This document shows, piece after piece, positions 8,463-64,000 of a DNA stretch of 64,000 nucleotides. The notes below the pieces were generated by a model. The model worked only from the letters and a program-made list of their open reading frames with translations, searched no databases and was not told the origin of the DNA. Each line of letters opens with the position of its first letter. Position 1 is the first letter of the stretch. The stretch comes from Bacteroidota bacterium (GTDB lineage Bacteria; Bacteroidota; Rhodothermia; Rhodothermales; Rubricoccaceae), in NCBI GenBank assembly GCA_012960515.1, contig DUBD01000191.1, forward strand, positions 164-64,163. The letters run 5' to 3'. A program made the position numbers and the translations under genes.

Positions 8463-8528
8463 CGCGTCCCGATCCTGCCAGCGGCGTCGGCGTTGGACGA
8501 CGGCCCTTCTCCTGCCGACCTGCGCACG

Positions 8529-10788
<2,260 letters not shown>

Positions 10789-48797: not shown

Positions 48798-48990
48798 CGT
48801 CGGGGGGAATGCAGAAGAGTACGGCCGACCGTCCTCCGGAGTCCAGAACACAAACGGACCCGCCCCCAACCACAGGAGGGTAGTAGAGTTAAAAGAGTTA
48901 AAAGAGTCTACGGGTGTTTATGGCGCCCTTGGAGGTAGCCGGAAGCGGTTGCGCCGCAACGCGATAGGGGATCCAGGAAAATCGGGTCGC

Positions 48991-49327: not shown

Positions 49328-49539
49328 GGGGGACCGCGAGCAAGCCGGTCCGTGAGCCTGCGGATCGCCCGGTGGACCACGCTCGGTCCGGGGAGACCCA
49401 TGTGGGGGGGCGCTGCCCTGGGCACGGGGCCTCGCTCAAAGGTGCACGCGGGTAGGGCTGCGCTCGCTGTCAACGGCGCATGCGGGCCCGTAGAGGCGGC
49501 CAGTTCACAAGACCGTGCACCTTTGCCCAGTGGAACCGT

Positions 49540-50511
49540 TCACGGAGCGCCGAGAGAATGACCGACATGCGTCCGGGCCCAGCGGATAGCTGTCTGGGCG
49601 AGGGTCTCACGCCGTTCCAGGACGGCGACCTCGACCGAGAACCCGGCGCGCAGTTCGATCGGTGTCTCGGCCTCCCCGACGATTACCGCGATCTCGTCGG
49701 GGTCGATGCTCAGCTCGACACGCCAACGTGCGGCGTGAGGCTCACCAGCGACTCCCTGTTGGCCGTCGACCTCTGGCGCCAGCGCCACCCGTCGGACGAC
49801 GCCAGAGGCCTGCCGGGGGCGCTCCTGGGGAATGGCCGGGAACGTGAGTCGGGCCGTCATCCCCGGACGAGCGCGCAGCGCCTCGCGCTCGGGAGCCCAG
49901 GCGCGGACGATGTGGGGGACTCGGCCGTCGGCATCCAGCGCCGCGAGATCAAGCACGGTGTCTCCCGCGTCGAGGCGGGCACCGCGACGCTGGGGGAGAT
50001 CCTCAGTAAGCACGACGCCGCCACGCCAGAAGGTCGCCGGGTCGGCGGCACCGTCAGACTGGCGCTCGGTCCACGGGGGCGCGACCACGTCGAGTCGAGC
50101 GCGCCGAGCGAGAAGGCCTGGGTCGTGGCCAATGGAGGTGCGAACTGCCTCGTCCAGGTCGGGCGAGCGGAGCCGAGCGACGAGTTGGCCGGGGCGTACG
50201 GTGTCGCCCGCGGCGACGAGGATGTCGGTGAGCAACCCCGGCTCGGCAGCACGAATCGGGAGTACGCGCTCGGGCACGAGACGACCGTCGAGGTCGACGG
50301 TGCGCGTGATCGGAACGGTGAGGGCGGCTACGCACGCGAGAACGCCCGCCAGCCCGACGGCGCGGAGGATGCGACGCCCGGCTCTCTCGGCTCCCTGAGA
50401 GGGCGGCGGTGGACCGTCGCTGGCAGGCGGGCCTCCGAGTGCCCGACGGGCGTCGGGGACCGTGAGCGTCCACCCTGGCGACTCTTCGGCTACGCTGCCA
50501 TCTCCGTGCAT
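49540..50511 (-). CDS. HlyD-like membrane fusion protein (short)
   Basis: TM anchor, LDGRLVP..., VAAGDTVRPGQLVARL lipoyl-like motif, LRAGFSVEVAV. Confidence 0.7.
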   Translation of the reverse strand: MHGDGSVAEESPGWTLTVPDARRALGGPPASDGPPPPSQGAERAGRRILRAVGLAGVLACVAALTVPITRTVDLDGRLVPERVLPIRAAEPGLLTDILVAAGDTVRPGQLVARLRSPDLDEAVRTSIGHDPGLLARRARLDVVAPPWTERQSDGAADPATFWRGGVVLTEDLPQRRGARLDAGDTVLDLAALDADGRVPHIVRAWAPEREALRARPGMTARLTFPAIPQERPRQASGVVRRVALAPEVDGQQGVAGEPHAARWRVELSIDPDEIAVIVGEAETPIELRAGFSVEVAVLERRETLAQTAIRWARTHVGHSLGAP

Positions 50512-52398: not shown

Positions 52399-53793
52399 TC
52401 AGCGGGCGACGGAGAACGTTCGAGACGCGGTCGCGGAGCCGTCCACAGCGACCGCCCGGAGCACGTAGACGCCGGGCGCGAGCCGGGTCGTGTCGACCTC
52501 GATGGGCACGCGGCCGACGGCGATCTGGTCGAAGGCCACGAGCGCCTCTCGGCCGAGCGCGTCGTAGACGACGGCGAGCACGTGGGCGAGGCGGTCGAGC
52601 GTGAGCGTGGCGATCGCGACGCCAGAGGCCGGGTTGGGAGTCGGCGCGGCGAGCGCGAACGGCTGTGCGGCCGGGTCGTCCTCGTCCGCGGTCGCTAGCT
52701 CGATGGTGAGGCCGATGTCGCCTAGCGAGATCTCGACGCCGTCGCCGTCGAGGGCCGCCAGCCCGACGCGGTAGGCGCCGATCGCCAGGGCCGCAATGTC
52801 CAGACCGTAGGCCGACGGCTCGCCAGTGGCCGCGGTCGTGCCCCATGTCGTCCAGGGCGATCCGAACACGTCGGGGCGGCCGTCGATGCGGAACGAGGCG
52901 ACGCCCGCCTCAGCGGACGTGCTCCACTCGATGCGGCCACCGGCGGGGGTCTGCTCGGCGGTGAACGACGCGAGGGCGACCTGCACCGGCGGCGGGCCGA
53001 ACGCGCGCGCGGCCAGCGTGGCGTCCAATACGAACGGGTTGGCCGTGCCCTGGTGGCCCTCGATGATGAGCGTTCGGTCGGTCTCCGCGTCGTCGGCGGG
53101 GTCCTGCTCGTGCCAGTCGAGGAGGACCTCGCGCTGCGCTGCCCAGAAGTCGGCGTCGAGCTGGTCGGCGCCGTTCGGGCCGTAGACCGTCCAGACGTAG
53201 AACATGGCGCGGGCCACGTCGCCGGCGACGGACTCGCGAGGCTCCAGCAGGGCGGTCGTCCCGTTTCGCTTCTCGGTGTAGAGGTCACGCACCGAGGCGG
53301 TCGGCATCGACGTGTGGGTCTGGCCGTCGGGGCCCCACCAGCGGTCGGCCTCGGCGTCCACGACCTCCCCAAACGGGTGGTCTGAGCGGGAGCTGTTCAC
53401 CGACTGCATCACCGGGGCGAGGTGGTGCAGGTCCCGGTAGGCGTCGGTCCCGTCCGTCGCGCCCCGGTTCTCGGGCCACAGGTGCTCGGTCGAGTAACGC
53501 GGGCTGGCGTTCCACGCCGTGGTCGTCGGATCGAGCGAGGGGTCGAGCCAGACGGCATGGCCCGAGTAGAAGCCGCGCAAGCTGTCGGTGGACGTTCCAT
53601 CGTCCAGCCGCTCGAGGTGGACGGCGGCGAAGAGGGTGTCGCGGGCGCGGTCGTAGGGGTACGTGCTCGTCGGCGCGTAGGTCGAGGCCAGCGCGCTCAC
53701 CAGCTCGTCGCCGGTGAGGTCGGGGTAGATGGCGGGCTGCGCCGCCGCCAGAGGGGCGAGCAGGAGGAGAGCGACGTGTCGGAGGGAGCGCAT
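52399..53793 (-). CDS. Endonuclease I family protein with T9SS C-terminal sorting domain
   Basis: Signal peptide; STEHLWP, DLHHL, NSSRSDHPF, GDVARAMFY, QGTANPFV; C-terminal PNP...YDALGR...LAPGVYVLR. Confidence 0.85.
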   Translation of the reverse strand: MRSLRHVALLLLAPLAAAQPAIYPDLTGDELVSALASTYAPTSTYPYDRARDTLFAAVHLERLDDGTSTDSLRGFYSGHAVWLDPSLDPTTTAWNASPRYSTEHLWPENRGATDGTDAYRDLHHLAPVMQSVNSSRSDHPFGEVVDAEADRWWGPDGQTHTSMPTASVRDLYTEKRNGTTALLEPRESVAGDVARAMFYVWTVYGPNGADQLDADFWAAQREVLLDWHEQDPADDAETDRTLIIEGHQGTANPFVLDATLAARAFGPPPVQVALASFTAEQTPAGGRIEWSTSAEAGVASFRIDGRPDVFGSPWTTWGTTAATGEPSAYGLDIAALAIGAYRVGLAALDGDGVEISLGDIGLTIELATADEDDPAAQPFALAAPTPNPASGVAIATLTLDRLAHVLAVVYDALGREALVAFDQIAVGRVPIEVDTTRLAPGVYVLRAVAVDGSATASRTFSVAR

Positions 53794-53804: not shown

Positions 53805-56348
53805 TCAGCGGACGATGGTGAGGCGATGCGTTACCGTCTGGGCGCCTGTGGCGACGCGGACGGCGTAGACGCCAGAGGCGAGAGCCGACACGTCGAGCCG
53901 CAGGTCTCGGGAGACGTCGTCGTGCCGGGCGACGACGCGACCGAGCGCATCGAAAACGGTGGCCTCGATCCGGGCGCCAGTGGGTGCGGCGATCCGGAGG
54001 CGCGTCGAGGTGTGCGCCGGGTTGGGGCGGGGTGCTGAGACGATCAGCGCGTCGACTGCGTCCGCCTCGGCCCCGAGGCGGGAGGGCTCGCCGTCGTCGC
54101 GGTCCTCGTCGTGGCCGGGGTCGACGGCCGGGGCGAGGAGCCCGAGCGGGACGGCGTCGCCAGAGGCCCATCCGCTGACGGCATTCGCGATCTGGGCCGA
54201 GGGGGCCTGGTAGTCGTTCAGACGCCCACGTGTCTCGGGGAGTGGCCCGGTCCAGGCGAAGTCGGCGTAGGCGTCGCCCGCGCCGGTGAGCTGGAGGGAG
54301 TGCCCGGCGGGGAGCGCGCTCCACTCCTGGACGCGGCGGTGCGTGCCGTCCGCCCCGCGCGGCCCTCGGATGACGGTGCTCCACGCGAGCGAGTCGGGGT
54401 GGGAGGGGGCACCTCCGCCAGAGGCCTCCGCCTCGGCGGCGTCGAAGACGGGCCCCTCGATGGCGTTGAACCGACAGCCGCCGGTGCTGAGGAACTGCAG
54501 GAGGACGCCGTCGGGGTCGGTGAGAGCGAGGCCCTGGCAACCACCGCGGAGGCGCTCGGCGCCCTGCCAGACGGCGCCGATGCCGCCGCCTTCGTCGTCG
54601 ATCGTGCCGCGGAAGGCGATGGCGGGAGAGCCGTCGGTGCCGTCGCCGTCGACCTGGTAGAGGAATCCGTAGCCCGAGTAGGTCCAGACGCGGTAGCCGT
54701 AGAGGTCCGTCCCGGCGCGTCCCGCGATCTCGACGCCTTCGCCCGTGTCGGGTCCGTCGTTCGAGTGGTGTATCTCGTTGATCCAGAGGTCGCGTGGGCG
54801 GGGCGCGTTGGGGCCCCGGTAGAACGTCCGTGCGAGGAGCGTCGGGTCGAGCACGAACGGGTTGCGGTTGCCCTGGGCGCGGTAGATGCGCTCGTTTCGC
54901 TGGACCTCGAAGGCGTCGACGGGGTCGGCCTCGTGCCAGTCACGGAGCACGTCGAGCGTGGCGTCGATAAAGGCGCGGCCCTCGTCGCCGTCCTCGGCCT
55001 CGATGCGATACGTGACGAGGAAGTAGGCGGCCATGCGCGCCACGTCGCCGCGGAGGGCGTGGCGCACGTCGAAGCGGCCGAGCTCGTCCAGGCTCTTGTA
55101 GCCGTCGCCGTTATCGGGCTGGCGGAGGAAGTCGAACTCGACGCGGCTCCAGGTCGCCGGGTCGGTCGGCGGCCCCGATGCGTGGTAGCGCGTCGTGCTG
55201 TTCCGGAGCCACTTCTGGGTGTCGTTCGGCCCGTCGAAGTCGTCTCCGAAGGCCCGGTTGGAGCGCGCGCTGTTGAAGGTGCCGAAGGCCGGGGCGAGGT
55301 GGTGGAGGTCGTTGTGCGAGGCGCCGTCGGTGGACGGACCGGTCTGCGCGCCCCGGCTCCGGGGCCACACGTGCTCCGTGTTGAAGTCCTGGTCCTGCAT
55401 CTGCGTCCGGGGCGTGAGCGGGCGCTCCCGCTCCCAAGACCGAACGAGCCCGCCGTAGAGTCCGCTCAGGTCGTGGAGCGTGCCGCTGCCGACCTGACGG
55501 ACGGCCTCGACCCAGACGGTCTCGAAGAGGTGGTCGCGGGCCTCGTCGTAGTGGAACGTCTGGGCCGGGGCGTACGCGGCGCGGATGCAGCTCTCGGCGT
55601 TCCAACCCCGGAGGCCTGGGCATATAGCGCCGACGGGCGTGTTCGGTACGAGGACGGCGAGGTCCTCGACGACGGCGTGGTAGCCGTCGGGGTTGGGGTG
55701 CATCGGGGCCTCGGCCGCGAGGGCAAGGGCGCCGACCCCGACGAAGCCGGGGACGGTCGTGGCGGGCAGGGCGACGTGGTCGACGTGGACCGTCCAAGCG
55801 TGGCCGCTGGCGGTCGGGACGCTCCGGATCTCGACCGGGACGTTCCGACTGTGACCGGCGGTTGGCAGCGAGGGGAGCGAGACCTGGGTGCTGATGGTGC
55901 CGTCGGTGACGGCGATCGCGTCGAGGTCGAGCGTCGTCCCTGCCGCGGGCCAGCGGAGCCGGAGCGCGGTGAAGGCCTGGGCGTCGGTGTAGCGGTCGAT
56001 GAGGTAGAGCGTGACGTCGGCCGCGTGGCTGTTGGGCTCCCGGACGACGGCCCGCAGGGTCCGCTCGCCGGTCGGCCCCTGGGCCACGGCGACGGCGTTC
56101 GAGCCCGGCTCGAAGTTGACGCGCGAGCTGGTGATCTTCGGCTTGAGCGCGTCGTCCGTCGTGCCCTCGACGGTCCAGCGGAGCCCGATCTCGGGCGTGT
56201 GCTGGTCGATGGGCGTGTCGCCCGCCTGGCAGCACATCGTGTCGAAGAACGCGAGCGCCTGGTCGCCGCTGCCGTAGGTCTGGGCGGCAGCGGGGACGGC
56301 GGCGAGCGCGACGAGCCCGGCGAGGAGTGAGCGGGGAAGAGGCAGCAT
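53805..56348 (-). CDS. Multidomain endonuclease I family protein with T9SS C-terminal domain
   Basis: Signal peptide; NTEHVWP, DLHHL, NSARSN, GDVAR, QGNRNPFV; WINEIHH (lamin-tail-like); C-terminal PNP...FDALGR...GVYAVR. Confidence 0.85.
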   Translation of the reverse strand: MLPLPRSLLAGLVALAAVPAAAQTYGSGDQALAFFDTMCCQAGDTPIDQHTPEIGLRWTVEGTTDDALKPKITSSRVNFEPGSNAVAVAQGPTGERTLRAVVREPNSHAADVTLYLIDRYTDAQAFTALRLRWPAAGTTLDLDAIAVTDGTISTQVSLPSLPTAGHSRNVPVEIRSVPTASGHAWTVHVDHVALPATTVPGFVGVGALALAAEAPMHPNPDGYHAVVEDLAVLVPNTPVGAICPGLRGWNAESCIRAAYAPAQTFHYDEARDHLFETVWVEAVRQVGSGTLHDLSGLYGGLVRSWERERPLTPRTQMQDQDFNTEHVWPRSRGAQTGPSTDGASHNDLHHLAPAFGTFNSARSNRAFGDDFDGPNDTQKWLRNSTTRYHASGPPTDPATWSRVEFDFLRQPDNGDGYKSLDELGRFDVRHALRGDVARMAAYFLVTYRIEAEDGDEGRAFIDATLDVLRDWHEADPVDAFEVQRNERIYRAQGNRNPFVLDPTLLARTFYRGPNAPRPRDLWINEIHHSNDGPDTGEGVEIAGRAGTDLYGYRVWTYSGYGFLYQVDGDGTDGSPAIAFRGTIDDEGGGIGAVWQGAERLRGGCQGLALTDPDGVLLQFLSTGGCRFNAIEGPVFDAAEAEASGGGAPSHPDSLAWSTVIRGPRGADGTHRRVQEWSALPAGHSLQLTGAGDAYADFAWTGPLPETRGRLNDYQAPSAQIANAVSGWASGDAVPLGLLAPAVDPGHDEDRDDGEPSRLGAEADAVDALIVSAPRPNPAHTSTRLRIAAPTGARIEATVFDALGRVVARHDDVSRDLRLDVSALASGVYAVRVATGAQTVTHRLTIVR

Positions 56349-56359
56349 CGGGGCGAGAA

Positions 56360-56387
56360 GCCTCTGGCGCACGGCGACGCCAGAGGC
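56360..56387. repeat. Inverted pair of the GCCTCTGGCG 10-mer forming a hairpin
   Basis: GCCTCTGGCG-CACGGCGA-CGCCAGAGGC between two co-oriented genes. Confidence 0.8.
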
Positions 56388-56399: not shown

Positions 56400-57230
56400 C
56401 TAGAACTGGCAGGCCGGGTCGTCCGGGTCGTAGCCGCCCGAGTAGCACACGCACTTGCAGCCGTCGTCGGCGGGCAGATTGCAGTCGCCGCAGATGTCGT
56501 CTCCGGCGAGGGCGTTCCAGCCGCTGACGGCCAGCGCCCAGAGCGAGAAGAGCCCGGTGGCGACGTTGGCCTCTTGGACGTCTAGGTGGGCGCTCGTCTC
56601 GGCCGACGCGTCGTGGCCGTCAGTATGGGTGGGTAGCGCGCCGCCGACGACCGAGCCGAGCATGGCGAGGAGCATCAGGGTGGCGGCCATGCGATGCGCC
56701 GTCTCGACCAGGCGCGTCCCGACGCCGCGTCCTCCGCTCCCGCCCGTGTCGCCAGGGTCGTCGGCCATCTCGGCCGCGACCCGGTCCTCGTGGGCGCTCG
56801 CGCGGATGCCGCCGAGGGACGCCGCCAGCGTGGCGCGTAGGGTCGGCTCGGTACCCACGGGCCGGTTGTCGCCGCCTGCCGGGTCGCTCGAAGCGGATGG
56901 CGAGCGGTGGACGACCTTGCGCCGGTCGGGCGGTGCGGCGGCGTGGTCGGGCGCCGGGCCGTCCTCGCTGCCGCCCGTGCCGCCGGCCTGGCTGGACACC
57001 GAGCCGTGGCTCTCGTCCTGGTCGCGGCGACGGCTCGGAGGATCGTGGGGGTTCGGCGGATCGCCTCCGGCGGTGGGCTGGCGGTGGATGATCTTGCGCC
57101 GGTCCCCCGTCTGCGGGTCGGGCGCCGGGGCGCCCTCGTTGTTGATGACGCGCCGCCGGTCGGAGGCGGGGTCGTGCGAGGGGTCGAGGGTGCCGTCGGC
57201 AACGGGGAGAGTGGGAGCGAGAGCGCTCAT
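56400..57230 (-). CDS. Hypothetical protein: repeat-rich N-terminus, two hydrophobic helices, six-Cys C-terminus
   Basis: DRR(K/R)(V/I)(I/V) x3; ends CGDC...CKCVC...CQF. Alternative GTG start at 57452. Confidence 0.7.
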   Translation of the reverse strand: MSALAPTLPVADGTLDPSHDPASDRRRVINNEGAPAPDPQTGDRRKIIHRQPTAGGDPPNPHDPPSRRRDQDESHGSVSSQAGGTGGSEDGPAPDHAAAPPDRRKVVHRSPSASSDPAGGDNRPVGTEPTLRATLAASLGGIRASAHEDRVAAEMADDPGDTGGSGGRGVGTRLVETAHRMAATLMLLAMLGSVVGGALPTHTDGHDASAETSAHLDVQEANVATGLFSLWALAVSGWNALAGDDICGDCNLPADDGCKCVCYSGGYDPDDPACQF

Positions 57231-57448
57231 GGCAGGCGGGCTCGAACGGCCCGTGGCTGGGGCCTTCGTCCTGACGCGGTCTCGGCCGCGCCAGATGTCT
57301 GGCGGTGGTTGAGGGTGTCGGCCTCGCGGCCCGGGTGGGCGACGAGGCTGTTCGGCCGCAGGCGCGGCCAGGGCCCTGCCGCACAGATGCGCGGCGGGAC
57401 CCTCCGGCGGGCAGGCGTGAGGGCACACGCGGCCCGCCGGTGTCGGGC

Positions 57449-57880
57449 TCACCCGGTGACGGTGAGGTCGTGGAGGGTGCGTGGGTCGTCGGGCGTGGGG
57501 CCCTGCTCGTGGCCGCCGTCGCCGCCGGGGTCCTGGTCGGTCCCGACGCCCTGGCTGCCGCCGTCCCCGCTGGCGGTCGCTAGGTCGTGCAGGTCTGGGC
57601 CGATGCTGAGAGCGGCGTGCGTGCCGCCGCCCTGGTTTCCACCGTCGCCCTCGGGATCGTCGTCGGTGCCGACGCCGCTCGTGCCTCCGTCGCCACCGGG
57701 ATCGGCGCCAGAGGCGTCGAACGCGAACGCACGGGGAGCGGGTGGAGGGTCGCCTGGTTCGTGGCCGCCGTCGCCGCCGGGGTGCGTGTCGACGGTGAGG
57801 GAGAGCGCGTTGTCGGGCGCCGGTCCGTCTTCGGAGCCGGTGTCGGGGTCGGTGGCTCGAGAGGCAGGGAGGTCGGGCAT
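57449..57880 (-). CDS. Gly/Asp-rich repeat peptide ((P/S)xGDGG x5)
   Basis: 143 aa with PGGDGGHE, PGGDGGTSGVGT, PEGDGGNQG, SGDGGSQGVGT, PGGDGGHEQ. Confidence 0.65.
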   Translation of the reverse strand: MPDLPASRATDPDTGSEDGPAPDNALSLTVDTHPGGDGGHEPGDPPPAPRAFAFDASGADPGGDGGTSGVGTDDDPEGDGGNQGGGTHAALSIGPDLHDLATASGDGGSQGVGTDQDPGGDGGHEQGPTPDDPRTLHDLTVTG

Positions 57881-57953
57881 GGCCGTGGGGGTGTGGGACG
57901 CGCTGGCGGATGGGACCGGACGGCGCGGCCAGCGCGCACCGTCCCGGGTCGGG

Positions 57954-59102
57954 TCACTTCGACTCCGGCCTCGGGGTGAACATGAAGAGCACCCGGAAGA
58001 CGCGGAAGACGAGGTAGCCGAGGACGGTGACGAGCGTGAGGACGATGTAGAGGTCGGTGTTGCGGACGCCGATCATGAGCACCCGGAGCGCCCCCAGCCC
58101 GATGAGGAAGAAGACGTAGACCAGCCCGAGGTTGAAGAAGGGCGCGTCGTCGCGCGACTGGAGATCGCGGACGTCCTGCTCGGTGACGAGCTTGGACTGC
58201 GCGCCGTCGTGCATCATGGCGCGGAGGATGGCCGGGTTGCCCTCGGCGCGGCGGAGGACTTCGCGGCGGTAGTGGCGGCGGTCGGCGCAGGCGACGGCGT
58301 AGCGCGAGACGAAGTACTCGAAGAGGGCCGCCGTGTGGGCGTCGCCGAGCGGCTCGACGTGGATCTGGCCGAACGTGGCGATAAACGTGCGGAGCGAACG
58401 GCTCTGGGGCAGCGACCGGATGGCGCCGATGACGGTGGCGCGCTGCTGGATCTCGCGGAGGAAGAGGCCCTGAGACGGCGACGCTCGGTCGAGCGCGTCG
58501 AGCACGACGAGCAGGCGCGGGGCACGGCCCCCGCCGGCGAGGTCGTGGAGCGACTCGACGACGGCGGTCTGGCGCTCGTCGACGGTGCGGAGCAGCTTTT
58601 TGACCTCGGCCCAGTCGTACTCGTCGCAGGCGCCCGCGCGCATCTGCGGCGGGATGCCAGGAAGGGCGAGGATGCCGAGCCCGTGGAACGCCTTCGCGAG
58701 CGCGTCCACGAGGCGACCGTTGGGCCCGGCCTCGGCGACGTAGACGAGGGTGTAGGCCTCGCCGGGCGTCTGCGGCATCTGGACGTACTTCCGCCGGGCG
58801 CGCGTCTGGGCGGCGCCGTCGAGAAGCACGCGTCGGCCCGCAACGACGGCGGCGAGGTCTTCCAGGAGGCGCGTCTTGCCGACGCCCTCGTCGCCCAGGA
58901 GGAGCGTGTGGCGACCGAGGACGGCGCGGTCGACGAGTTCGGCCAGGACGTGGCCGTTGCCGAGGCGGATGGGGTCCGTGAGGACGGTGCAGTCGGGCGC
59001 TCCGGGAACGCCGACTGGACGGAGCGCCCCGACCGACTGGCCGGGCGCCGCGAGGGCGTCGGGCCGGGAGATCGCCGAGAGCCGGGGAGCGGTCGAGAGC
59101 AT
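57954..59102 (-). CDS. P-loop (AAA-like) ATPase with two C-terminal TM helices
   Basis: LLGDEGVGKT, VVLDALD, GNP; C-terminal hydrophobic hairpin. Confidence 0.8.
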   Translation of the reverse strand: MLSTAPRLSAISRPDALAAPGQSVGALRPVGVPGAPDCTVLTDPIRLGNGHVLAELVDRAVLGRHTLLLGDEGVGKTRLLEDLAAVVAGRRVLLDGAAQTRARRKYVQMPQTPGEAYTLVYVAEAGPNGRLVDALAKAFHGLGILALPGIPPQMRAGACDEYDWAEVKKLLRTVDERQTAVVESLHDLAGGGRAPRLLVVLDALDRASPSQGLFLREIQQRATVIGAIRSLPQSRSLRTFIATFGQIHVEPLGDAHTAALFEYFVSRYAVACADRRHYRREVLRRAEGNPAILRAMMHDGAQSKLVTEQDVRDLQSRDDAPFFNLGLVYVFFLIGLGALRVLMIGVRNTDLYIVLTLVTVLGYLVFRVFRVLFMFTPRPESK

Positions 59103-60578
59103 CTATCGGTGGAGCCTCGTCCAGAGCCGGGTGACGTCGTGCACGACGGGGTCGTCGAGGTGTCCGTTGGCCGCGTGGAAGGCGAGGAGCTTGCCCGCGA
59201 CCTCCTCGTAGGTCTTGGCGCGACCGCGCTTGAAGAAGTGCCAGCGCTTGGGCGGCTCATCACACAGGAGCGCGCGGAGGTAGCGGACGGCGTCGACTGC
59301 GGCGACCGGGCTGGCGATGCCGGTCTCTTCGAGAACGTGGGCCTCGTGGGCGACGGCGCGGTCTCGTCCCACGGCGTCCTCGAAGAGGGCGAAGACCTCG
59401 GTGCGGAGCCGGTCGAGCTCCGTCGCGAGGGGGTGGCGCGTGGCCGCCTGCGGCGCCGGGGGTGGGGAGGACGGGAGCGCGGCCATCGTGGGGGCGCTCG
59501 GGGCCTCTGGCGGGGCAGGCGGCTCGGCGTGAGCGGAGCCGTCGCCAGAGGTCATCGTGATCGTTTCGGCTGGCTCGCTGGCGCCAGGCTCCGGTGCGGG
59601 GGGAGGACCCATCGCGTTCAGGACTAGACCGCTCTGGGAGAGGGGGCCAGCGGGAGAGAGGGAGGTGCCTGGAGATCCGCCCTGCAATTCCGCGACGAGG
59701 GCGCCGAGGCCCGTCGCGTGAGGGTGGCTGGGCTCGACGAGGCGAGGGCGCTCGGCGCGTTCGCGGAGGTAGCTCTCGACGGCCTCAGCCTGATCGTCGG
59801 CTAGCGTCGCGCCCGGATCGGCGACGGGTGGAAGAGCGAGGGGCGCCGTCTCGCCAGAGGCCCCTCGGCGGGCGAGCGCGAGGCGGTTGGCCTGCTCGAT
59901 GACGCCGTCGAGGTCGAAGGCGCGGTCGCTCCGGTCGGGGAGCGTCGCGCGGTTTTTCGCCCGGTCGTAGAGCAGGACGCGCCCGGTGACGCCGTCGAGG
60001 TGATGGGCGAGCGTGGTCGCGAGCTCGTCGTTGGGCGCGCCGTCTTCGGCCGAGCCGGTGAGGTCAGCGAGGTCGAGGAGAAGAACGCGAGGGCGGTCGG
60101 GGTCGGAGAAGTCGTTGACTTCGAGGACGCCGCCTCCGCAGCCGGAGCGCGCGATCTGGCGCGCGACGAGCTCGGCGGACTCGCGGCCGTCGACGTGGAG
60201 CTTGAGGCACTCCGCGTAGAAGACGGTCTCGAGGAAGCGGGCGCACTCCGGCTCCGCCAGCTCGAAGAGGCTGAGGAAGGCGTCATGGCCCGCGTCGCGG
60301 TGCTCGATGAAGCGCGCGAGCGCCGAGGCGGGCGTGACCGGGAAGCGGTAGTCCGGCGTGGTGCGGGCGACGGTGAGGAGCTGCCCCGACGAGGCCACGA
60401 AGGTGTCGTAGGTCGGTCCGAGGGTCCCGTGTCCGTCGCCAGAGGCGGTCTCACCGTGGGCTCCGTACCGGACGACGATGAGCGACACGACCCCCTGGGC
60501 CTGCTGGTCGGCGAGGCCTACCGGGTCCGCGAAGGACGCCGGGACGTGCTCGAAGATGGGGTGTGCCGTCGTGAGCAT
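59103..60578 (-). CDS. Hypothetical protein (globular N-terminal domains, Pro/Ala linker, helical C-terminal domain)
   Basis: 491 aa; TGATG-coupled to the upstream gene; abuts the AAA gene. Confidence 0.7.
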   Translation of the reverse strand: MLTTAHPIFEHVPASFADPVGLADQQAQGVVSLIVVRYGAHGETASGDGHGTLGPTYDTFVASSGQLLTVARTTPDYRFPVTPASALARFIEHRDAGHDAFLSLFELAEPECARFLETVFYAECLKLHVDGRESAELVARQIARSGCGGGVLEVNDFSDPDRPRVLLLDLADLTGSAEDGAPNDELATTLAHHLDGVTGRVLLYDRAKNRATLPDRSDRAFDLDGVIEQANRLALARRGASGETAPLALPPVADPGATLADDQAEAVESYLRERAERPRLVEPSHPHATGLGALVAELQGGSPGTSLSPAGPLSQSGLVLNAMGPPPAPEPGASEPAETITMTSGDGSAHAEPPAPPEAPSAPTMAALPSSPPPAPQAATRHPLATELDRLRTEVFALFEDAVGRDRAVAHEAHVLEETGIASPVAAVDAVRYLRALLCDEPPKRWHFFKRGRAKTYEEVAGKLLAFHAANGHLDDPVVHDVTRLWTRLHR

Positions 60579-61378
60579 CAGGGTGCGGGGGCGCGGTCGC
60601 CAGGAGCCTCTGGCGAGGCGAGCGCGAGGTCGGGGTCGCCACCGGCGTCGAGCGTGGCGAGACGGGCGGCGTTCGTGGCCAGTGCGTGCTCGGCCGAGAG
60701 GAGCGCCAGGCGTTGGCGCGCGAGCCCCTCGTAGTCGAGGTCGCCCTGTTCGTACTTCATCTCGGCGAGGCGTGTCAGCTCCCGCTGGGCCTCGACGCGG
60801 CGGGCGAGGTAGTCGGCCTCGATGCGGAGCTGGACCGCGGCGAGGTCGGCGCGTCGCTGCTGCTCGGCCTCTCGCTCCCGTTCGTCCGCCTCGCGCTCGG
60901 CACGAGCGATGATGCGCTCTCGGGCCTGGGCCTCCTGGCGCTCGCGTCGGGCGTGGTGGAGGTCGATTCGGGCCTCGGCGAGCGTGACGGCGGCGCGGGC
61001 GCGGTGGAGGGGGCGGCGGTCGAGGAGCTGTTCGAGCGACCACGAGGCCGTGACGCCCCACGTGTCGCCGGGCCAGCGCGCGATGGCGGCGTAGGCGGGG
61101 TCGTAGCCCTGGGACGAGATGGAGGGGAAGGCGAGGCCGCGCGTGGAGACGCTGAGGAAGAAGTCGAGCTGGGGCCGGAGGCGCGCAAGGCCGGAGGTCG
61201 CACGCAGCTCCAGCCGGGCGAGGTCGAGACGGGCCTCCTCAATGCGGAGCGCGGCCGTCGACGTGTCGGCGGCGAGGAAGAGATCCGCGAGGGGATCGCC
61301 GCTGCCGAGCGGAGCGGGCTCCTGACCGTGGCAGACGGCCGAGCCGAAGAGGGCGAAGACGAGGAGGACGAGGCGCAT
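60578..61378 (-). CDS. Short TolC/OEP-like secreted protein
   Basis: Signal peptide; coiled-coil helices, WGVTASWSLEQL strand, KYEQGDL motif. About half the length of TolC. Confidence 0.6.
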   Translation of the reverse strand: MRLVLLVFALFGSAVCHGQEPAPLGSGDPLADLFLAADTSTAALRIEEARLDLARLELRATSGLARLRPQLDFFLSVSTRGLAFPSISSQGYDPAYAAIARWPGDTWGVTASWSLEQLLDRRPLHRARAAVTLAEARIDLHHARRERQEAQARERIIARAEREADEREREAEQQRRADLAAVQLRIEADYLARRVEAQRELTRLAEMKYEQGDLDYEGLARQRLALLSAEHALATNAARLATLDAGGDPDLALASPEAPGDRAPAP

Positions 61379-61383
61379 CGGTC

Positions 61384-61731
61384 TCAGGCGTGGGCGGGCT
61401 CGGGCGCGAGCGCCTGGAGGGACGGCGCGTCGGCCGGGTCGAGGCCGGCGGCTCCGGCCAGCGCCTTGAGAAAGCCGTCCCCAAGGACGGGGCGACGCTC
61501 GAAAAGGGCCAGCGTCTGGCTGGCCAGTTCGGCGTGGAAGCCGGGCGGCATCGCGTGGTAGTGCTCGCAGTGGTGGAGCCGGAGCGCGGCGTAGGCCTGC
61601 CGGTCGTGGTCGCGGCCGGTGGCCTCGAGCGCGTTGCGGACGACGCAGATGTCGAAGCGGTGCGAGGTCAGCATCCGGTAGAGCGCGAGGGCGACGGACC
61701 GGCGGCGGAAGGGGTCGATGGTGTCGAGCAT
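61384..61731 (-). CDS. Hypothetical protein with FDIC...LHHC motif
   Basis: 115 aa; HRFDICVV...YAALRLHHCEHYHAM. Confidence 0.6.
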   Translation of the reverse strand: MLDTIDPFRRRSVALALYRMLTSHRFDICVVRNALEATGRDHDRQAYAALRLHHCEHYHAMPPGFHAELASQTLALFERRPVLGDGFLKALAGAAGLDPADAPSLQALAPEPAHA

Positions 61732-61848
61732 GGTGGCACCTGCGGTGCGGGACTGGGGACTATGCGCTGTCGCGCCGGGACTGGGGACTGGCAAGGGGCG
61801 CGTACTCCCTGTTCCCGAGTCCCTAGTCCCGCGCGAGCGAAGCGAGCG

Positions 61849-62733
61849 CTACCCCTCCGTGTTCTCGCGGATCACGACGCCGTCACCGCCCCGCTGCTTG
61901 GTCTGGCGGAAGGTGCCGTTCACGTAGTCGTTGCGCGAGACGACCGAGCCGTCGGCGGTGTCGCCGGAGGAGAGGAGCGTCCGGAGCAGCGTGCCGGTCA
62001 CGTTGCCCTCGGCGTCGATGGCGAAGTCGGCGCCGTAGTAGCGCGTGCGGACCGAGCCGTCGGGGCCGCCGTCGCGGAGCGTACCCGTCCCGTTGGTATT
62101 GAGCGTGGCGACGGGCTCGCGGACGGTGACCGACTCGCGCAGCTCCTGGTTGGCGTAGCTCACGACGGCCTCGCCCTCGGCGGGCGAGTAGACCTGGGCG
62201 ACGCGCCACGTGTCGTAGGTCGAGAAGCTGGCCTCGGCGTCGTTGGAGGCGCCGGTGAGGTAGGGGATGGAGCCCGCCTGGAGCGCGGAGACGAAGCCCA
62301 CGAGGTCGGCGTAGGTGAGGAACGAGAGCGTGACCGACTCGACGGCGTCCAGGCCGCCCACGTCGCGGGCGTGCTGGACGCGGGCCTGCCAGACGCCGAC
62401 GCCCTGGGGCTCGCGGTACTGGAGCTGGACCAGGAAGCCCTTGGCGTTGACGGCGTCGTAGACGCCGGTGTAGGTCGTCGTGTCGACGCGGGCGCTCATC
62501 GAGGCGAGCGCAGTGGCGCCCGTCGCGGAGGCCGCGCGAGCGGCGGAGCCCGAGTCGCCGAAGCCGAGGGAGAAGAGCTCCTCCACTTCCTCAAAGGCTG
62601 CGGTGACGAGCGCCGATTCGTTCGCGGAGATGGGCTCGATGGGATCGGGGCCCGTGGGGCCGTCCGTCGGGATGGTGGCGTCGCAGGCGGCGAGGAGCAG
62701 CGCCAGAGGCGCGAGAAGGAGAACGCGGAGCAT
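61849..62733 (-). CDS. Hypothetical lipoprotein
   Basis: LLAAC lipobox; beta-rich body. Confidence 0.8.
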   Translation of the reverse strand: MLRVLLLAPLALLLAACDATIPTDGPTGPDPIEPISANESALVTAAFEEVEELFSLGFGDSGSAARAASATGATALASMSARVDTTTYTGVYDAVNAKGFLVQLQYREPQGVGVWQARVQHARDVGGLDAVESVTLSFLTYADLVGFVSALQAGSIPYLTGASNDAEASFSTYDTWRVAQVYSPAEGEAVVSYANQELRESVTVREPVATLNTNGTGTLRDGGPDGSVRTRYYGADFAIDAEGNVTGTLLRTLLSSGDTADGSVVSRNDYVNGTFRQTKQRGGDGVVIRENTEG

Positions 62734-63030
62734 GGTGTGGTTGAGGGTGCGCCCGTCGAGGGCTGGGGAGGCCGAGAGCGGCCGGGGAGAGGCGAGGGCA
62801 CGCCTCTGGCGGAGTGCCAGCTTGGCTGGCATGGGGGGCCGCTGAGCGGCCCAGGGGAGCCTCCTCCTCCACGCCGCGTAGACGGGTGCAGGATCGAAGC
62901 TCTCCGGTCGCGCAATGCGCGGCCATGGTTGACTTGCGTCGACCTATCGGTTGAGGGTGTCGGTTCGGGTCTTCGGACCGGGCGGCCACCGGGGCAGGGC
63001 TAACAGTCCCCGGTGGCCGTCTCTGTGTGG

Positions 63031-64000
63031 TTAGAGGTCGGGGGAGCGGTCGAGCGCGCCGGGACGCGGCGCGACGAGCACGACGCGGACCTCGGTGCGG
63101 TCGGGCCCGAGGGCGCGGGTCTCGATGCGGCGGACGACGCCCGCGCCAGAGGAGCGGACGATCCCGTCCCGCGAGGCGGTGGCGTGGCGGAGCCGAGCCC
63201 GACGGAGACGGGCGGCGGCCTCGCGGACGCGCTCGGCCTGGGTGCGCTGCCAGGCATCGGCGCGAGCGGCGGACTGGGACTCGGCGGCGGCGAGCTGGGC
63301 GCGGAGATCGGCGGCCCGGGCACGAGCGGACTCTAGGGCGCGCGCAGGCTCGAAGCCCTGGGCGTGACGCTCGGCGATGCGTCGGGAGGCGTCCTCGGCC
63401 TGGGTGAGCCGCTGGCGGAGCGCGACGGGGTCGGACGCCAGAGGCGGACGTGCGCTCTGTGCGGCGGCGAGGGCGGCCTGCGCCTCGGCCACGTCGAGGC
63501 GGGCGGTGACGAGCGCCGACGAGGTGAGCACGGCGATCGTGTCGCCGACGGCGACGGTCTGGCCTTCCTGAACGAGGAGGCGGGGCGGCTCGGACGGCTT
63601 GTGGGCAAACGTCACGCGGCGGACCTCGGAGCGAGCCGTGTCCTGGGGGTCGTAGTCCTCCGCCTCGCCCTCGCGTGTAAACACGCGGAGTGTGACGGAG
63701 CCCTGCTCGACGAGGAAGCCCGAGAGGTTCAGGCGGTCGAGGTCGGCGAGCGTCGCGAACTGGAGCGAGAGCCGCTTCTCCGTGCCCGTGACCGTGTCGA
63801 AGCGGAACTCGTCGGGCGTGACGCCCGCGGCCTCGGTGAGCGTGACCTGTCCGTCGATAAGGTGGCGGACGGGCTGGCCGTCGGGACCATCGGGCACGAG
63901 CGACTCGAGGTCGGCGAGGACGCGGCCGTCGAGCGTGATCTGGCGGCGGGAGACCTGGACGCGGTCGCCCCGGTGCGCGATGACGCGGTCGGGCTGGAAG
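63031..64000 (-). CDS. Protein with C-terminal HlyD/biotinyl-lipoyl-like and coiled-coil region (5' end beyond window)
   Basis: Frame is open to the window edge; LLVQEGQTVAVGDTIAVL, coiled coil, VRSSGAGVVRRI. Confidence 0.65.
   Translation of the reverse strand, partial: FQPDRVIAHRGDRVQVSRRQITLDGRVLADLESLVPDGPDGQPVRHLIDGQVTLTEAAGVTPDEFRFDTVTGTEKRLSLQFATLADLDRLNLSGFLVEQGSVTLRVFTREGEAEDYDPQDTARSEVRRVTFAHKPSEPPRLLVQEGQTVAVGDTIAVLTSSALVTARLDVAEAQAALAAAQSARPPLASDPVALRQRLTQAEDASRRIAERHAQGFEPARALESARARAADLRAQLAAAESQSAARADAWQRTQAERVREAAARLRRARLRHATASRDGIVRSSGAGVVRRIETRALGPDRTEVRVVLVAPRPGALDRSPDL

What the first reader, a model, noticed from the sequence alone, without database searches (positions are those of the whole stretch)
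56400..64000. Unfamiliar co-oriented envelope/secretion cluster on the plasmid backbone
Seen: HlyD-like protein, lipoprotein, small Cys/His protein, half-length TolC-like protein, unknown 491-aa protein, membrane-anchored AAA ATPase and two repeat proteins, with abutting junctions from 61378 to 57954. It is dense in the host 10-mer, so probably long resident. I cannot match it to T1-T9SS, Tad or standard conjugation gene sets. Inference: an undescribed export or contact apparatus, possibly completed by the ABC/HlyD pair at 49.5-52.4 kb.
Basis: inference. Interest (0 to 1): 0.7.

Follow-up and report, generated by a model that had tools for sequence, protein, structure and literature searches.

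The report
Plasmid-borne envelope machine with nucleases
The cluster is real and is one version of an undescribed gene module found on "non-mobilizable" plasmids of at least five bacterial phyla: a membrane-anchored ATPase, a membrane hydrolase fused to an efflux-adaptor-like arm, a half-size TolC-like outer-membrane protein, lipoproteins, a tyrosine recombinase and exported DNases, which probably handles DNA at the cell envelope for the plasmid's benefit.

Summary

The unit is larger than 56.4-64 kb. It runs from an XerC/D-like integrase (beyond the window end) to an ABC/HlyD pair at 49.5 kb, next to the replication origin. Gene order is conserved in at least 10 loci.

The "HlyD-like" protein is really a 570-aa fusion: a YdjM metal-hydrolase membrane domain plus an adaptor-like periplasmic arm.

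The core recurs on plasmids of Thermus, cyanobacteria, Gammaproteobacteria and Bacteroidota, nearly all typed non-mobilizable. It consists of an AAA_16 ATPase with a C-terminal membrane hairpin and the YdjM protein; Thermus and Gammaproteobacteria also carry a single-repeat TolC-like protein. In two Bacteroidota plasmids the recombinase is fused to the ATPase. Secreted nucleases (SNase, Endonuclease I) accompany the module in three phyla.

It matches no described secretion, conjugation or defence system. The ABC/HlyD pair is accessory. The "host 10-mer" is not this MAG's motif; it belongs to Rubricoccus marinus-like genomes.

The function is inferred, not shown. I favour an envelope-spanning DNA-handling machine.

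The parts
63031..64000 (-). A: C-terminal 322 aa of a 570-aa protein (full gene 63031-64743 on the window scale). It has an N-terminal YdjM metal-hydrolase membrane domain, a domain predicted periplasmic, and a lipoyl-type hairpin with an inserted coiled coil (membrane-fusion-protein-like).
   Evidence: PF04307 at E 1.7e-23. Biotin_lipoyl_2 at E 0.008 and DevB at E 0.0025. Full-length hhalign match to the Thermus plasmid 549-aa hydrolase, probability 99.9, E 3e-37. Invariant H6, D41, D43, H66, H71, H105 and D109.
62983..63019 (-). Conserved GC-rich hairpin (12-bp stem, 13-nt loop) directly after the stop codon of A
   Evidence: Conserved in the window, L014, L015 and L008, with a compensatory G-C to A-U change in L008. 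The surrounding 171 nt folds at -73.7 kcal/mol, z-score -2.6. No Rfam match.
61849..62733 (-). B: lipoprotein of 294 aa (lipobox LLLAAC), no known domain
   Evidence: Orthologues at 46-94% identity in all Rubricoccaceae loci. Distant homologues in the low-GC loci L042 and L044, E 3e-7 to 8e-9.
61384..61794 (-). C: small His/Cys-containing protein (115-136 aa), no signal peptide
   Evidence: Conserved at 37-87% identity in 8 loci. No family match.
60578..61378 (-). D: signal peptide followed by one TolC-like repeat (helix, two strands, 89-residue helix, helix); a half-size outer-membrane-factor-like protein
   Evidence: AF2 mean pLDDT 77. 24 of the top 25 Foldseek PDB hits are outer-membrane factors (OprJ, OprM, OprN, VceC, CmeC, TolC), probability up to 0.98 but E only 0.009-1.5. 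UniRef calls two orthologues 'TolC family protein'. The Thermus counterpart in the same module passes Pfam OEP as a single repeat, E 3.6e-13.
59103..60578 (-). E: 491-aa protein with no predicted signal peptide or membrane helix. It has a conserved N-terminal alpha/beta domain, a variable Pro/Ala-rich linker and a conserved C-terminal helical domain.
   Evidence: Alignments. AF2 pLDDT 63 and no fold match. 82 representative homologues, none of the 30 distant ones scanned has any Pfam domain. Present in 9 of 283 Rhodothermales genomes.
57954..59102 (-). F: ORC/Cdc6-type P-loop ATPase (AAA_16) anchored by a C-terminal two-helix membrane hairpin
   Evidence: Homologues with the same architecture on plasmids of Nitrosococcus, Allochromatium, Methylobacter and Thermus. 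Fused to a tyrosine recombinase in Flavobacterium and Haliscomenobacter plasmids.
57449..57880 (-). G: 143-aa GDGG-repeat protein in the variable slot
   Evidence: Found only in L014 and L015, at 57% identity. The slot holds an SNase gene in L009, L013, L019 and L020.
56400..57452 (-). H: 350-aa protein with a disordered repeat N-terminus, two hydrophobic helices and a six-Cys tail
   Evidence: The last 32 residues are 91% identical to a stand-alone 53-aa ORF at the same position in the Rubrivirga marina plasmid.
56360..56387 (.). Inverted pair of the 10-mer GCCTCTGGCG forming a hairpin between H and the first nuclease gene
53805..56372 (-). I: exported nuclease of 855 aa, with a signal peptide, an Endonuclease I domain and a T9SS C-terminal sorting domain
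   Evidence: PF04231 at E 1.4e-24, PF18962 at E 2e-8 and TIGR04183 at E 1.2e-9. Syntenic in all loci.
52399..53793 (-). J2: second Endonuclease I paralogue (464 aa from the signal-peptide Met), with a C-terminus similar to the sorting domain of I
   Evidence: PF04231 at E 1.4e-22. Start position re-derived. C-terminal similarity to I.
50490..52397 (-). J: HlyB-like ABC exporter (membrane domain plus ATP-binding domain, no C39 peptidase); accessory
   Evidence: PF00664 and PF00005. The best NCBIfam model is the type I secretion HlyB model, but far below its cut-off. Absent from L009, L018 and L019.
49540..50511 (-). Short HlyD-family adaptor (323 aa) paired with J; accessory
   Evidence: Weak matches to the NHLP HlyD and type I HlyD models, E 4e-7 to 8e-7.

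Best explanation
This is the Rubricoccaceae form of a widespread, undescribed plasmid-backbone module.

Shown:
- One co-transcribed-looking array holds, in order: an XerC/D-like tyrosine recombinase, a small Ig-like lipoprotein, A, B, C, D, E, F, a variable slot, and exported DNases.
- The F plus A pair recurs on plasmids of five phyla. A single-repeat TolC-like protein accompanies it in diderm lineages other than cyanobacteria.
- In two Bacteroidota plasmids the recombinase, the ATPase and the membrane hairpin form a single polypeptide.

Inferred architecture:
- F sits on the cytoplasmic face of the inner membrane, with E as its soluble partner.
- A has five membrane helices. Its His/Asp metal site faces the cytoplasm, and its C-terminal arm (a beta-rich domain, then a lipoyl hairpin with a long coiled coil, as in membrane fusion proteins) reaches across the periplasm.
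- D would need six copies to build a TolC-type duct, and would supply the outer-membrane end.
- B and the small lipoprotein would brace the complex.
- The membrane-tethered recombinase would bring plasmid DNA to it.

Inferred function: the complex handles DNA at the envelope for the plasmid's benefit. My preferred version, at roughly one chance in three, is export or 'donation' of plasmid DNA independent of type IV secretion. In that version the recombinase acts as the nicking or loading enzyme and the exported DNases clear competing DNA. The ABC/HlyD pair and the G/H genes are lineage-specific add-ons.
For: Conserved synteny:
- Gene order is kept across at least 10 Rubricoccaceae/Rhodothermales loci.
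- Translational coupling runs from the integrase through A in L019 and L020, and from F into the nuclease in L017, L019 and L020.

Individual parts:
- A is YdjM plus an adaptor-like arm, with full-length homology to the Thermus plasmid hydrolase. Its predicted periplasmic part is homologous to the Allochromatium hydrolase, 28% identity over 395 aa, E 9e-31.
- The Thermus orthologue of A also touches Zn_dep_PLPC, E 1e-4.
- The positive-inside rule places the arm in the periplasm (plus sequence).
- F homologues with the same membrane hairpin lie next to the hydrolase on plasmids of Nitrosococcus, Allochromatium, Methylobacter, Thermus, Synechocystis, Synechococcus elongatus and Stanieria.
- D has an outer-membrane-factor topology and Foldseek hits to that family. 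The Thermus counterpart is a bona fide single OEP repeat.

Links to DNA:
- Integrase-ATPase-hairpin fusions occur in Flavobacterium pA5BP1 and Haliscomenobacter pHALHY02.
- Nucleases sit beside the module in Rubricoccaceae (Endonuclease I, SNase), Thermus (thermonuclease) and cyanobacteria (thermonuclease).
- Other neighbours elsewhere are a DUF87 (HerA/VirB4-type) ATPase in cyanobacteria and a CHAP cell-wall hydrolase in Allochromatium.

Plasmid context:
- 57 of 59 PLSDB plasmids with the hydrolase, and 17 of 17 with the ATPase, are typed non-mobilizable.
- No VirB4, coupling protein or relaxase was found among the ORFs of this 85-kb contig that I scanned against Pfam.
- The backbone carries a 10-mer signature of a different Rubricoccus lineage, which implies recent movement between hosts.
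Against: - No experiment bears on function, and no part is a known DNA translocase.
- AAA_16 ATPases are usually switches rather than motors.
- A YdjM domain has never been shown to form a channel.
- D gives no sequence-level match to Pfam OEP, or to any canonical outer-membrane factor in its own genome. Its Foldseek E-values are weak (0.009-1.5) and TM-scores are 0.17-0.28.
- The adaptor likeness of A rests on sub-threshold matches.
- Exported DNases would destroy naked exported DNA.
- The 'non-mobilizable' label is common anyway for plasmids of Thermus and cyanobacteria, so the 57/59 figure has no proper baseline.
- Cyanobacterial versions apparently lack the TolC-like gene. The low-GC relatives L043 and L044 show no F in the stretch seen.
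- Many neighbours are defence or toxin-antitoxin genes, which fits a defence reading.
Confidence: 0.4

Rival explanations
1. It is a dedicated two-step secretion duct for the DNases. The nucleases enter the periplasm through Sec and are expelled through an A-D duct driven by F, much as MacAB-TolC expels periplasmic enterotoxin. The plasmid would gain by destroying incoming DNA in naturally transformable hosts (an exclusion function) or by feeding on extracellular DNA.
For: Nucleases with signal peptides accompany the module in three phyla. F is translationally coupled to the nuclease gene. The architecture includes an adaptor-like arm and a TolC-like protein. From general knowledge: Thermus, Synechocystis and S. 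elongatus are naturally competent, and DNases encoded by mobile elements block transformation in Campylobacter and Vibrio.
Against: Here the Endonuclease I proteins carry T9SS sorting domains, so they already have an export route. This reading gives no role to the recombinase, which is operon-linked and is fused to the ATPase in Bacteroidota. Several versions (Nitrosococcus, Allochromatium, Methylobacter, Flavobacterium) show no adjacent nuclease.
Confidence: 0.2
2. It is a membrane-tethered plasmid stability system. The recombinase resolves plasmid multimers under control of the membrane-anchored ATPase, as FtsK controls XerCD. An SNase-type nuclease acts as a partner, as in the RK2 parCBA operon. 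The envelope proteins would position the complex.
For: The module always lies beside rep/par genes, and these belong to different Rep families (RPA, Rep3, RepA_C). The recombinase is XerC/D-like (TIGR02224, E 5e-54, below cut-off). Recombinase-ATPase fusions exist. The module is kept even on 14-25-kb plasmids. The RK2 parCBA precedent of a recombinase with an SNase-like ParB is from my own knowledge and was not tested here.
Against: Multimer resolution needs no periplasmic arm, outer-membrane protein or lipoproteins. The nucleases are exported and so cannot reach cytoplasmic plasmid DNA. Several versions have no recombinase adjacent to F and A.
Confidence: 0.15
3. It is an anti-phage or anti-plasmid defence (abortive) system. 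F would be a STAND-like sensor ATPase, and A a membrane-damaging phospholipase-C-like effector. The nucleases would be extra effectors.
For: The neighbours are often defence or toxin-antitoxin genes: a NACHT protein, Abi, GIY-YIG, restriction-modification, PemK, and an S-4TM effector. F gives weak NACHT, nSTAND and PtuA/mad8 matches. The Thermus A orthologue touches Zn_dep_PLPC.
Against: There is no PADLOC match above noise. Defence systems rarely include a signal-peptide TolC-like protein, lipoproteins or a fused recombinase. The module is retained on very small plasmids beside rep/par, which suggests a core plasmid function.
Confidence: 0.1
4. There is no single machine. The region would be a chance stack of separable units on a plasmid: a type I secretion-like ABC/HlyD pair with a TolC-like partner, nutrient-scavenging nucleases, a resolvase, and orphan genes.
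For: The ABC/HlyD pair and the G/H genes are indeed separable. The slot between F and the nucleases varies. L043 and L044 carry the lipoprotein-B-D-E part without a visible F.
Against: The F-A pairing holds across five phyla. There is overlapping-codon coupling, a Rosetta-stone fusion, and co-conservation of the lipoprotein, B, D, E and A even in 48-52% GC organisms.
Confidence: 0.05

Closest known systems
Tripartite envelope exporters (MacAB-TolC, HlyBD-TolC type I secretion, DevBCA-TolC)
   Same: Both have an inner-membrane component with a cytoplasmic NTPase. Both have an adaptor with a lipoyl-type hairpin and a long coiled coil, predicted here to be periplasmic. Both have a TolC-fold outer-membrane protein. 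A real HlyB-like ABC/HlyD pair sits at the 3' end of this locus.
   Different: The engine is an ORC/Cdc6-type AAA_16 ATPase held by a membrane hairpin, not an ABC, RND or MFS transporter. The adaptor is fused to a YdjM metal-hydrolase domain. The TolC-like protein has one repeat instead of two. No substrate with a type I signal is evident. The ABC/HlyD pair is dispensable across loci. A tyrosine recombinase and DNases belong to the unit.
Conjugative type IV secretion and other DNA-export routes (including Thermus 'transjugation' with TdtA)
   Same: Both are encoded on plasmids. Both combine a DNA-processing enzyme with a membrane ATPase and envelope proteins. In some versions a cell-wall hydrolase (CHAP) or a DUF87/HerA-VirB4-type ATPase lies alongside.
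   Different: There is no VirB4, VirD4, relaxase, pilin or secretin homologue on this contig. The DNA enzyme is a tyrosine recombinase. No FtsK/HerA-type translocase is present in the Rubricoccaceae form.
RK2/RP4 parCBA stability operon and FtsK-XerCD dimer resolution
   Same: Both have a site-specific recombinase co-encoded with an SNase-type nuclease beside plasmid maintenance genes. In both a recombinase is coupled to a membrane-anchored ATPase.
   Different: The recombinase is a tyrosine rather than a serine enzyme. The ATPase is not a DNA pump. The periplasmic and outer-membrane parts have no counterpart. This comparison rests on recalled knowledge and was not tested here.
E. coli YdjM (PF04307), a LexA-regulated inner-membrane putative metal hydrolase
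   Same: The N-terminal 165 residues of A match PF04307 above the family cut-off, and the His/Asp residues are invariant.
   Different: E. coli YdjM is a stand-alone protein of about 196 aa with unknown function. A adds about 400 residues predicted to be periplasmic and always pairs with the F-type ATPase.

Membership tests
Type I secretion system | An ABC exporter of the HlyB/PrtD type that passes the family model | tested here: inconclusive
   J has ABC_membrane and ABC_tran domains. Its best NCBIfam model is TIGR01846, at 192 bits against a cut-off of 725.
Type I secretion system | The ABC exporter, the adaptor and the outer-membrane factor are inherited together with the rest of the cluster | tested here: not met
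   The ABC/HlyD pair is absent from L009, L018 and L019, and from the Thermus, gammaproteobacterial, cyanobacterial and Bacteroidota versions.
Type I secretion system | A substrate with RTX/GG repeats or a C-terminal secretion signal | tested here: not met
   G and H have no Pfam match of any kind, including HemolysinCabind. They are absent from most loci.
Outer membrane factor (TolC/OEP, PF02321) | Two tandem OEP repeats in a protein of 400-500 aa | tested here: not met
   D is 266 aa with a single helix-strand-strand-long helix-helix unit. The Thermus counterpart is 225 aa with one complete OEP repeat, model positions 1-187 of 187.
Outer membrane factor (TolC/OEP, PF02321) | Sequence match to the OEP model | tested here: not met
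   D has no Pfam OEP hit at E up to 0.1. hhalign against OEP-bearing proteins is not significant. The D profile finds no other protein in its own genome. The positional counterpart in Thermus does pass, E 3.6e-13.
Outer membrane factor (TolC/OEP, PF02321) | TolC fold | tested here: inconclusive
   24 of the top 25 Foldseek PDB hits are outer-membrane factors, with probability up to 0.98. However, E is 0.009-1.5 and TM-scores are 0.17-0.28 for a monomer model.
Membrane fusion protein (HlyD/RND adaptor) | A lipoyl (barrel-sandwich) domain interrupted by an alpha-helical hairpin | tested here: inconclusive
   Matches are sub-threshold only: Biotin_lipoyl_2 E 0.008 and DevB E 0.0025, and E 0.003 in the Thermus orthologue. 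The split motif (VAVGDTIAVL ... coiled coil ... GAGVVRRIE) is visible in the alignment. No structure model was made.
YdjM (PF04307) | Match above the gathering score, with conserved His/Asp residues | tested here: met
   83.4 bits against a cut-off of 29. H6, D41, D43, H66, H71, H105 and D109 are invariant in 8 sequences.
AAA_16 / ORC-Cdc6-type P-loop ATPase | Family model match with Walker A and Walker B motifs | tested here: met
   32.4 bits against a cut-off of 32.6, which is borderline. The Thermus homologue scores 40.9 bits. GxxGxGKT and hhhhDxxD are invariant.
Conjugative type IV secretion | VirB4-type ATPase, coupling protein and relaxase on the replicon | tested here: not met
   Pfam scans of the large ORFs I called on the 85-kb contig found none. 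Not every called ORF was scanned, and small or divergent relaxases cannot be excluded.
T9SS cargo | A C-terminal sorting domain (PF18962 / TIGR04183) | tested here: met
   For I: 34.8 bits against a cut-off of 27, and 38 bits against 23. For J2 there is only similarity to the tail of I.
Tyrosine recombinase (XerC/D-like) | Phage_integrase catalytic domain plus a SAM-like N-terminal domain | tested here: met
   PF00589 at 96 bits and PF02899 at 41 bits. TIGR02224 scores 184 bits, below its equivalog cut-off of 335.
Known anti-phage defence systems (PADLOC) | Any component matching a defence model | tested here: not met
   There are only P-loop-level hits for F (mad8 E 4.5e-4, PtuA E 1.6e-3) and for the ABC protein. 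Nothing matched A, B, C, D, E or H.

The most novel reading that the evidence does not exclude
The ATPase-YdjM pair would be the engine of a previously unrecognised trans-envelope DNA-export ('donation') machine. The machine would include a hexameric single-repeat TolC-like duct and a membrane-tethered tyrosine recombinase as the DNA-loading enzyme. It would work without type IV secretion or capsids. It would explain how many plasmids typed 'non-mobilizable' in Thermus, cyanobacteria, Chromatiales, Bacteroidota and Rhodothermota spread, probably into naturally competent recipients. The single-repeat TolC-like protein would also be a living form of the pre-duplication ancestor of TolC.
Probability: 0.22. 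Interest if true: 0.92.

Novelty: new variant of a known kind. Interest (0 to 1): 0.72.

Why it matters
More than half of sequenced plasmids have no recognisable transfer machinery, and how they spread is an open question. This module is kept even on 14-25-kb plasmids, always next to rep/par, in five phyla. It joins a recombinase, a membrane ATPase, an envelope-spanning scaffold and exported DNases. Whatever it does (DNA donation, exclusion of incoming DNA, or membrane-coupled resolution), it is probably a core plasmid function that has gone unnoticed.

It is directly testable. Carriers include genetically tractable laboratory organisms: Thermus thermophilus, Synechocystis 6803 (pSYSX and pSYSM) and Synechococcus elongatus. 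The cultured Rubricoccus marinus and Rubrivirga marina also carry it.

It also offers a natural half-size TolC, and gives the first functional context for the YdjM family.

Tried and rejected
- The plus-strand ORF 49480-50691, first taken as a convergent gene, is a shadow of the minus-strand HlyD-like gene.
- Pfam, NCBIfam, PADLOC and PHROGs gave nothing for B, C, D, E, G and H.
- Profile searches of D, E, A and F against PDB sequences gave nothing.
- The AF2 model of E (pLDDT 63) found no fold relative in the PDB. The 30 distant E homologues I scanned carry no Pfam domain.
- hhalign of D against the OEP part of the window's own RND-OEP protein, the Thermus OEP protein and the Allochromatium 239-aa protein was not significant. 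The D profile finds no canonical outer-membrane factor in its own genome.
- Literature searches found no description of the module. Terms tried: Rubricoccus plasmid; YdjM; metal-dependent hydrolase + TolC + Thermus; thermonuclease + DUF87.
- A promising 'DUF457' paper was a false lead. The word-start search had matched DUF4579, and the paper says nothing about YdjM.
- The 'host 10-mer means long residence' argument was rejected.
- The motif repeated in the L019 SNase gene is local to that gene and is not a genome-wide signal.
- Rfam found nothing in 56.3-64 kb.
I therefore could not look for transcripts or recombination joints.
- Both structure-prediction jobs went to E and D, so A, B and F were not modelled.

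Full report
**1. What is in the sequence.**

The window is G000:C191:164-64163, part of an 85,442-bp contig of a 3.9-Mb MAG. Relatives are named Rubricoccaceae, Rubrivirga and Rhodothermales, and the same-genus genome G002 is Rubricoccus marinus. GC content is 73%, so I called genes by third-position GC.

From 64000 down to 49540 every real gene is on the minus strand:

| Gene | Coordinates | Notes |
|---|---|---|
| A | 63031-64000+ | cut by the window end |
| B | 61849-62733 | lipoprotein |
| C | 61384-61794 | small, His/Cys-containing |
| D | 60578-61378 | TolC-like |
| E | 59103-60578 | 491 aa, unknown |
| F | 57954-59102 | membrane-anchored ATPase |
| G | 57449-57880 | repeat protein |
| H | 56400-57452 | repeat protein with Cys tail |
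| I | 53805-56372 | nuclease |
| J2 | 52399-53793 | nuclease |
| J | 50490-52397 | ABC exporter |
| adaptor | 49540-50511 | HlyD-like |

I extended the contig. A is a 570-aa protein whose N-terminus lies beyond the window. Upstream of A lie a small ORF, a 133-aa Ig-like lipoprotein, a partly masked ORF, and an XerC/D-like tyrosine recombinase.

**2. Plasmid context.**

Directly downstream of the HlyD-like gene are the iteron region, an RPA-type rep gene (47391-48869), parA and an RHH gene. The rest of the contig carries copper, mercury and RND metal resistance, umuC, a NACHT protein, toxin-antitoxin genes, IS200, a second RepA_C and methylases. I found no VirB4, coupling protein or relaxase among the ORFs I scanned.

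**3. Domain content.**

- F is an AAA_16 P-loop ATPase with invariant Walker motifs and a C-terminal two-helix hairpin.
- A has a YdjM domain (PF04307, 83 bits) with seven invariant His/Asp residues. A domain predicted to be periplasmic follows. The protein ends in a split lipoyl motif with a coiled coil of about 110 residues, which gives sub-threshold Biotin_lipoyl_2 and DevB matches.
- By the positive-inside rule the arm of A is periplasmic and the metal site faces the cytoplasm (this is inference).
- I and J2 are Endonuclease I proteins, and I has a clear T9SS sorting domain.
- J and its partner resemble type I/bacteriocin ABC-HlyD pairs but fall far below family cut-offs.
- B, C, D, E, G and H match nothing in Pfam, NCBIfam, PADLOC or PHROGs.

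**4. D and E by structure.**

With an 11-sequence alignment AF2 gave D a mean pLDDT of 77. The topology is helix, strand, strand, an 89-residue helix, then a helix. In Foldseek, 24 of the top 25 PDB hits were outer-membrane factors, with probability up to 0.98, 13-23% identity over about 200-260 columns, E of 0.009-1.5 and low TM-scores. UniRef labels two orthologues 'TolC family protein'.

Sequence methods do not link D to OEP. 'Half-size TolC-like' is therefore supported at the fold and position level only.

E modelled poorly (pLDDT 63) and has no fold relative.

**5. Synteny within the lineage.**

The order integrase - lipoprotein - A - B - C - D - E - F - (slot) - Endonuclease I - Endonuclease I is kept in both R. 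marinus copies, in G021, and in loci L013, L014, L015, L019 and L020. It is kept in part in L012, L016, L017 and L018.

- Start and stop codons overlap from the integrase through A in L019 and L020.
- F overlaps the next nuclease gene in L017, L019 and L020.
- The slot after F varies. It holds G and H here and in L014 and L015, an SNase gene in L009, L013, L019 and L020, and a 53-aa membrane peptide in R. marina. That peptide equals the Cys-rich tail of H at 91% identity.
- The ABC/HlyD pair is present in 5 loci and absent from L009, L018 and L019.
- F, A (its predicted periplasmic part), D and E each have only about 50-80 close homologues, many of them on 60-95-kb contigs.
- E occurs in 9 of 283 Rhodothermales genomes, which is a patchy, mobile distribution.
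- The module lies beside three different Rep families.

**6. The module outside the lineage.**

A tblastn search of F against PLSDB found distant homologues (23-24% identity, E 1e-12; 2e-7 for Allochromatium) on plasmids of Nitrosococcus and Allochromatium. Each lies beside a 'metal-dependent hydrolase'. That hydrolase is homologous to A well beyond the YdjM domain: 28% identity over 395 aa, E 9e-31. The ATPases share the membrane hairpin. The gene upstream is a signal-peptide protein with the same TolC-repeat look.

Searching with the Allochromatium pair widened the picture:

- The hydrolase is on 59 plasmids, 57 of them typed non-mobilizable. Hosts include Thermus, Synechocystis 6803 (pSYSX and pSYSM), S. 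elongatus, Nostoc, Stanieria, Methylobacter, Haliscomenobacter and Flavobacterium.
- The ATPase is on 17 plasmids, all non-mobilizable.

In the Thermus 19-25-kb plasmids the array runs ATPase - 'TolC family protein' - lipoprotein - coiled-coil protein - 544-549-aa hydrolase, with a thermonuclease next door. The Thermus TolC-like protein passes Pfam OEP as one complete repeat (E 3.6e-13). The Thermus hydrolase aligns with A end to end (probability 99.9, E 3e-37) and touches Zn_dep_PLPC.

In cyanobacteria the pair is followed by a DUF87 ATPase, and a thermonuclease gene lies a few genes away. Allochromatium adds a CHAP hydrolase.

In Flavobacterium pA5BP1 and Haliscomenobacter pHALHY02 the tyrosine recombinase, the ATPase and (in Haliscomenobacter, where I read the sequence) the membrane hairpin form one polypeptide, followed by the YdjM gene.

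A full HMMER search with E found 82 representatives. The distant ones carry no Pfam domain. On 48-52% GC contigs they sit in arrays of lipoprotein - B - D - (a metallo-beta-lactamase-fold protein, which in L044 carries a T9SS tail) - E, followed by A in L042 and L043, and headed by an integrase in L044.

**7. Interpretation.**

*Shown:* this is a conserved plasmid module found in several phyla. Its constant core is the membrane-anchored ATPase plus the YdjM protein. In Thermus, Gammaproteobacteria and the Rhodothermota/FCB-like lineages a single-repeat TolC-like protein joins them. The core is linked by operon structure, or by gene fusion, to a tyrosine recombinase, and exported nucleases accompany it repeatedly.

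*Inferred:* the parts assemble into an envelope-spanning complex that acts on DNA for the plasmid. I rank the readings as follows.

1. DNA export or donation is first. It gives a role to every part: a recombinase at the membrane, an ATPase, an inner-membrane protein with a periplasmic arm, an outer-membrane duct, a cell-wall hydrolase, and a HerA/VirB4-type ATPase in some versions. It also fits the lack of known transfer genes and the evidence that this backbone has moved between Rubricoccus lineages.
2. A nuclease-secretion or exclusion duct is second.
3. Membrane-coupled multimer resolution is third.
4. Defence is fourth.

None of these has been tested by experiment.

**8. The 10-mer.**

GCCTCTGGCG is strongly enriched in the window (29 copies against 0.6 expected). 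The MAG as a whole has only 100 copies, and 36 of them are on this contig. R. marinus and another congener (G004) have about 14,000-17,000 copies each, and other relatives have background levels. On the contig the copies are confined to the backbone and are absent from the metal-resistance island.

The motif therefore marks a former host, or a mis-binned contig. It does not mark long residence in this MAG.

**9. Earlier notes of this scan.**

After reaching the above I found that two earlier follow-up agents had described the same module in other genomes and reached similar readings. These are AI notes and are not independent evidence. Here I re-derived the cross-phylum recurrence, the half-TolC and the nuclease association. 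I add three things: the recombinase-ATPase-hairpin fusions, the wider E/B/lipoprotein family in low-GC organisms, and the foreign-10-mer argument for recent host change.

**10. Verdict.**

No description was found in the searchable literature. I file it as a new variant of the tripartite envelope-machine kind. There is a real chance (about 0.2) that it is a categorically new DNA-transfer route.

Noticed in passing
window-wide; for example 56360-56387, with 29 copies in total: The 10-mer GCCTCTGGCG is not a motif of this MAG: 100 copies genome-wide, 36 of them on this contig. It occurs 14,211 and 16,991 times in Rubricoccus marinus (G002) and G004, and only 164 times in congener G001. On G002:C6 all listed copies, which cover the first 39 kb, lie on one strand. 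On this contig the copies are confined to 30-40 and 45-75 kb. The function of the motif is unknown; candidates are an uptake signal or a strand-polar sequence.
   Followed up: partly
L019:11092-11805: The SNase gene that follows the ATPase in L019 contains five in-frame copies of about 15 nt (AACCGAAGGTCCGCG). They encode the peptide NRRSAxRN inserted along the nuclease. Apart from single copies in L013 and L025, the motif is local to that gene among the loci held.
   Followed up: partly
window 62983-63019: A 12-bp GC-rich hairpin lies directly after the stop codon of A. It is conserved in four loci, with one compensatory pair change. A conserved leader of about 150 nt follows, ending in GGAGGAGGAGG ahead of gene B. 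There is no Rfam match.
   Followed up: partly
window 56400-56500 and L018:1698-1859: The six-Cys C-terminal tail of H (…CGDCNLPADDGCKCVCYSGGYDPDDPACQF) is 91% identical to a stand-alone 53-aa membrane peptide at the same position in the Rubrivirga marina plasmid. By predicted topology the tail may be cytoplasmic, and so may bind metal.
   Followed up: partly
window 12678-17330: A single 1,550-aa ORF combines a complete AcrB-type RND pump (ACR_tran, residues 40-1061) with an OEP outer-membrane-factor domain (residues 1376-1537). This would be an unusual fusion if it is not an assembly or frame artefact.
   Followed up: no
window 7467-10535: This ORF combines an N-terminal SAM methyltransferase domain (residues 58-144) with a P-type ATPase (E1-E2 ATPase, residues 594-775). 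It may be a fusion or two genes read as one.
   Followed up: no
L006:2871-2950 (window scale about 65.7 kb): An 80-base run of N lies just downstream of the integrase stop codon and masks part of a small ORF between the integrase and the Ig-like lipoprotein.
   Followed up: no
G154:C2 (Rubrivirga marina, 94,505 bp): The E gene is split across the two ends of this contig: the N-terminal part at 93751-94479 and the C-terminal part at 28-405. The contig therefore closes into a circle, which supports a plasmid.
   Followed up: no
L044:8696-9985 and L043:4356-5423: In low-GC relatives of the module, the position taken here by nucleases is held by a metallo-beta-lactamase-fold protein. In L044 this protein carries a T9SS sorting tail.
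   Followed up: no
C141, C146, C168 of the same MAG: These contigs also carry the foreign 10-mer at 0.35-0.94 copies/kb. They may be further pieces of the same plasmid or of related plasmids.
   Followed up: no
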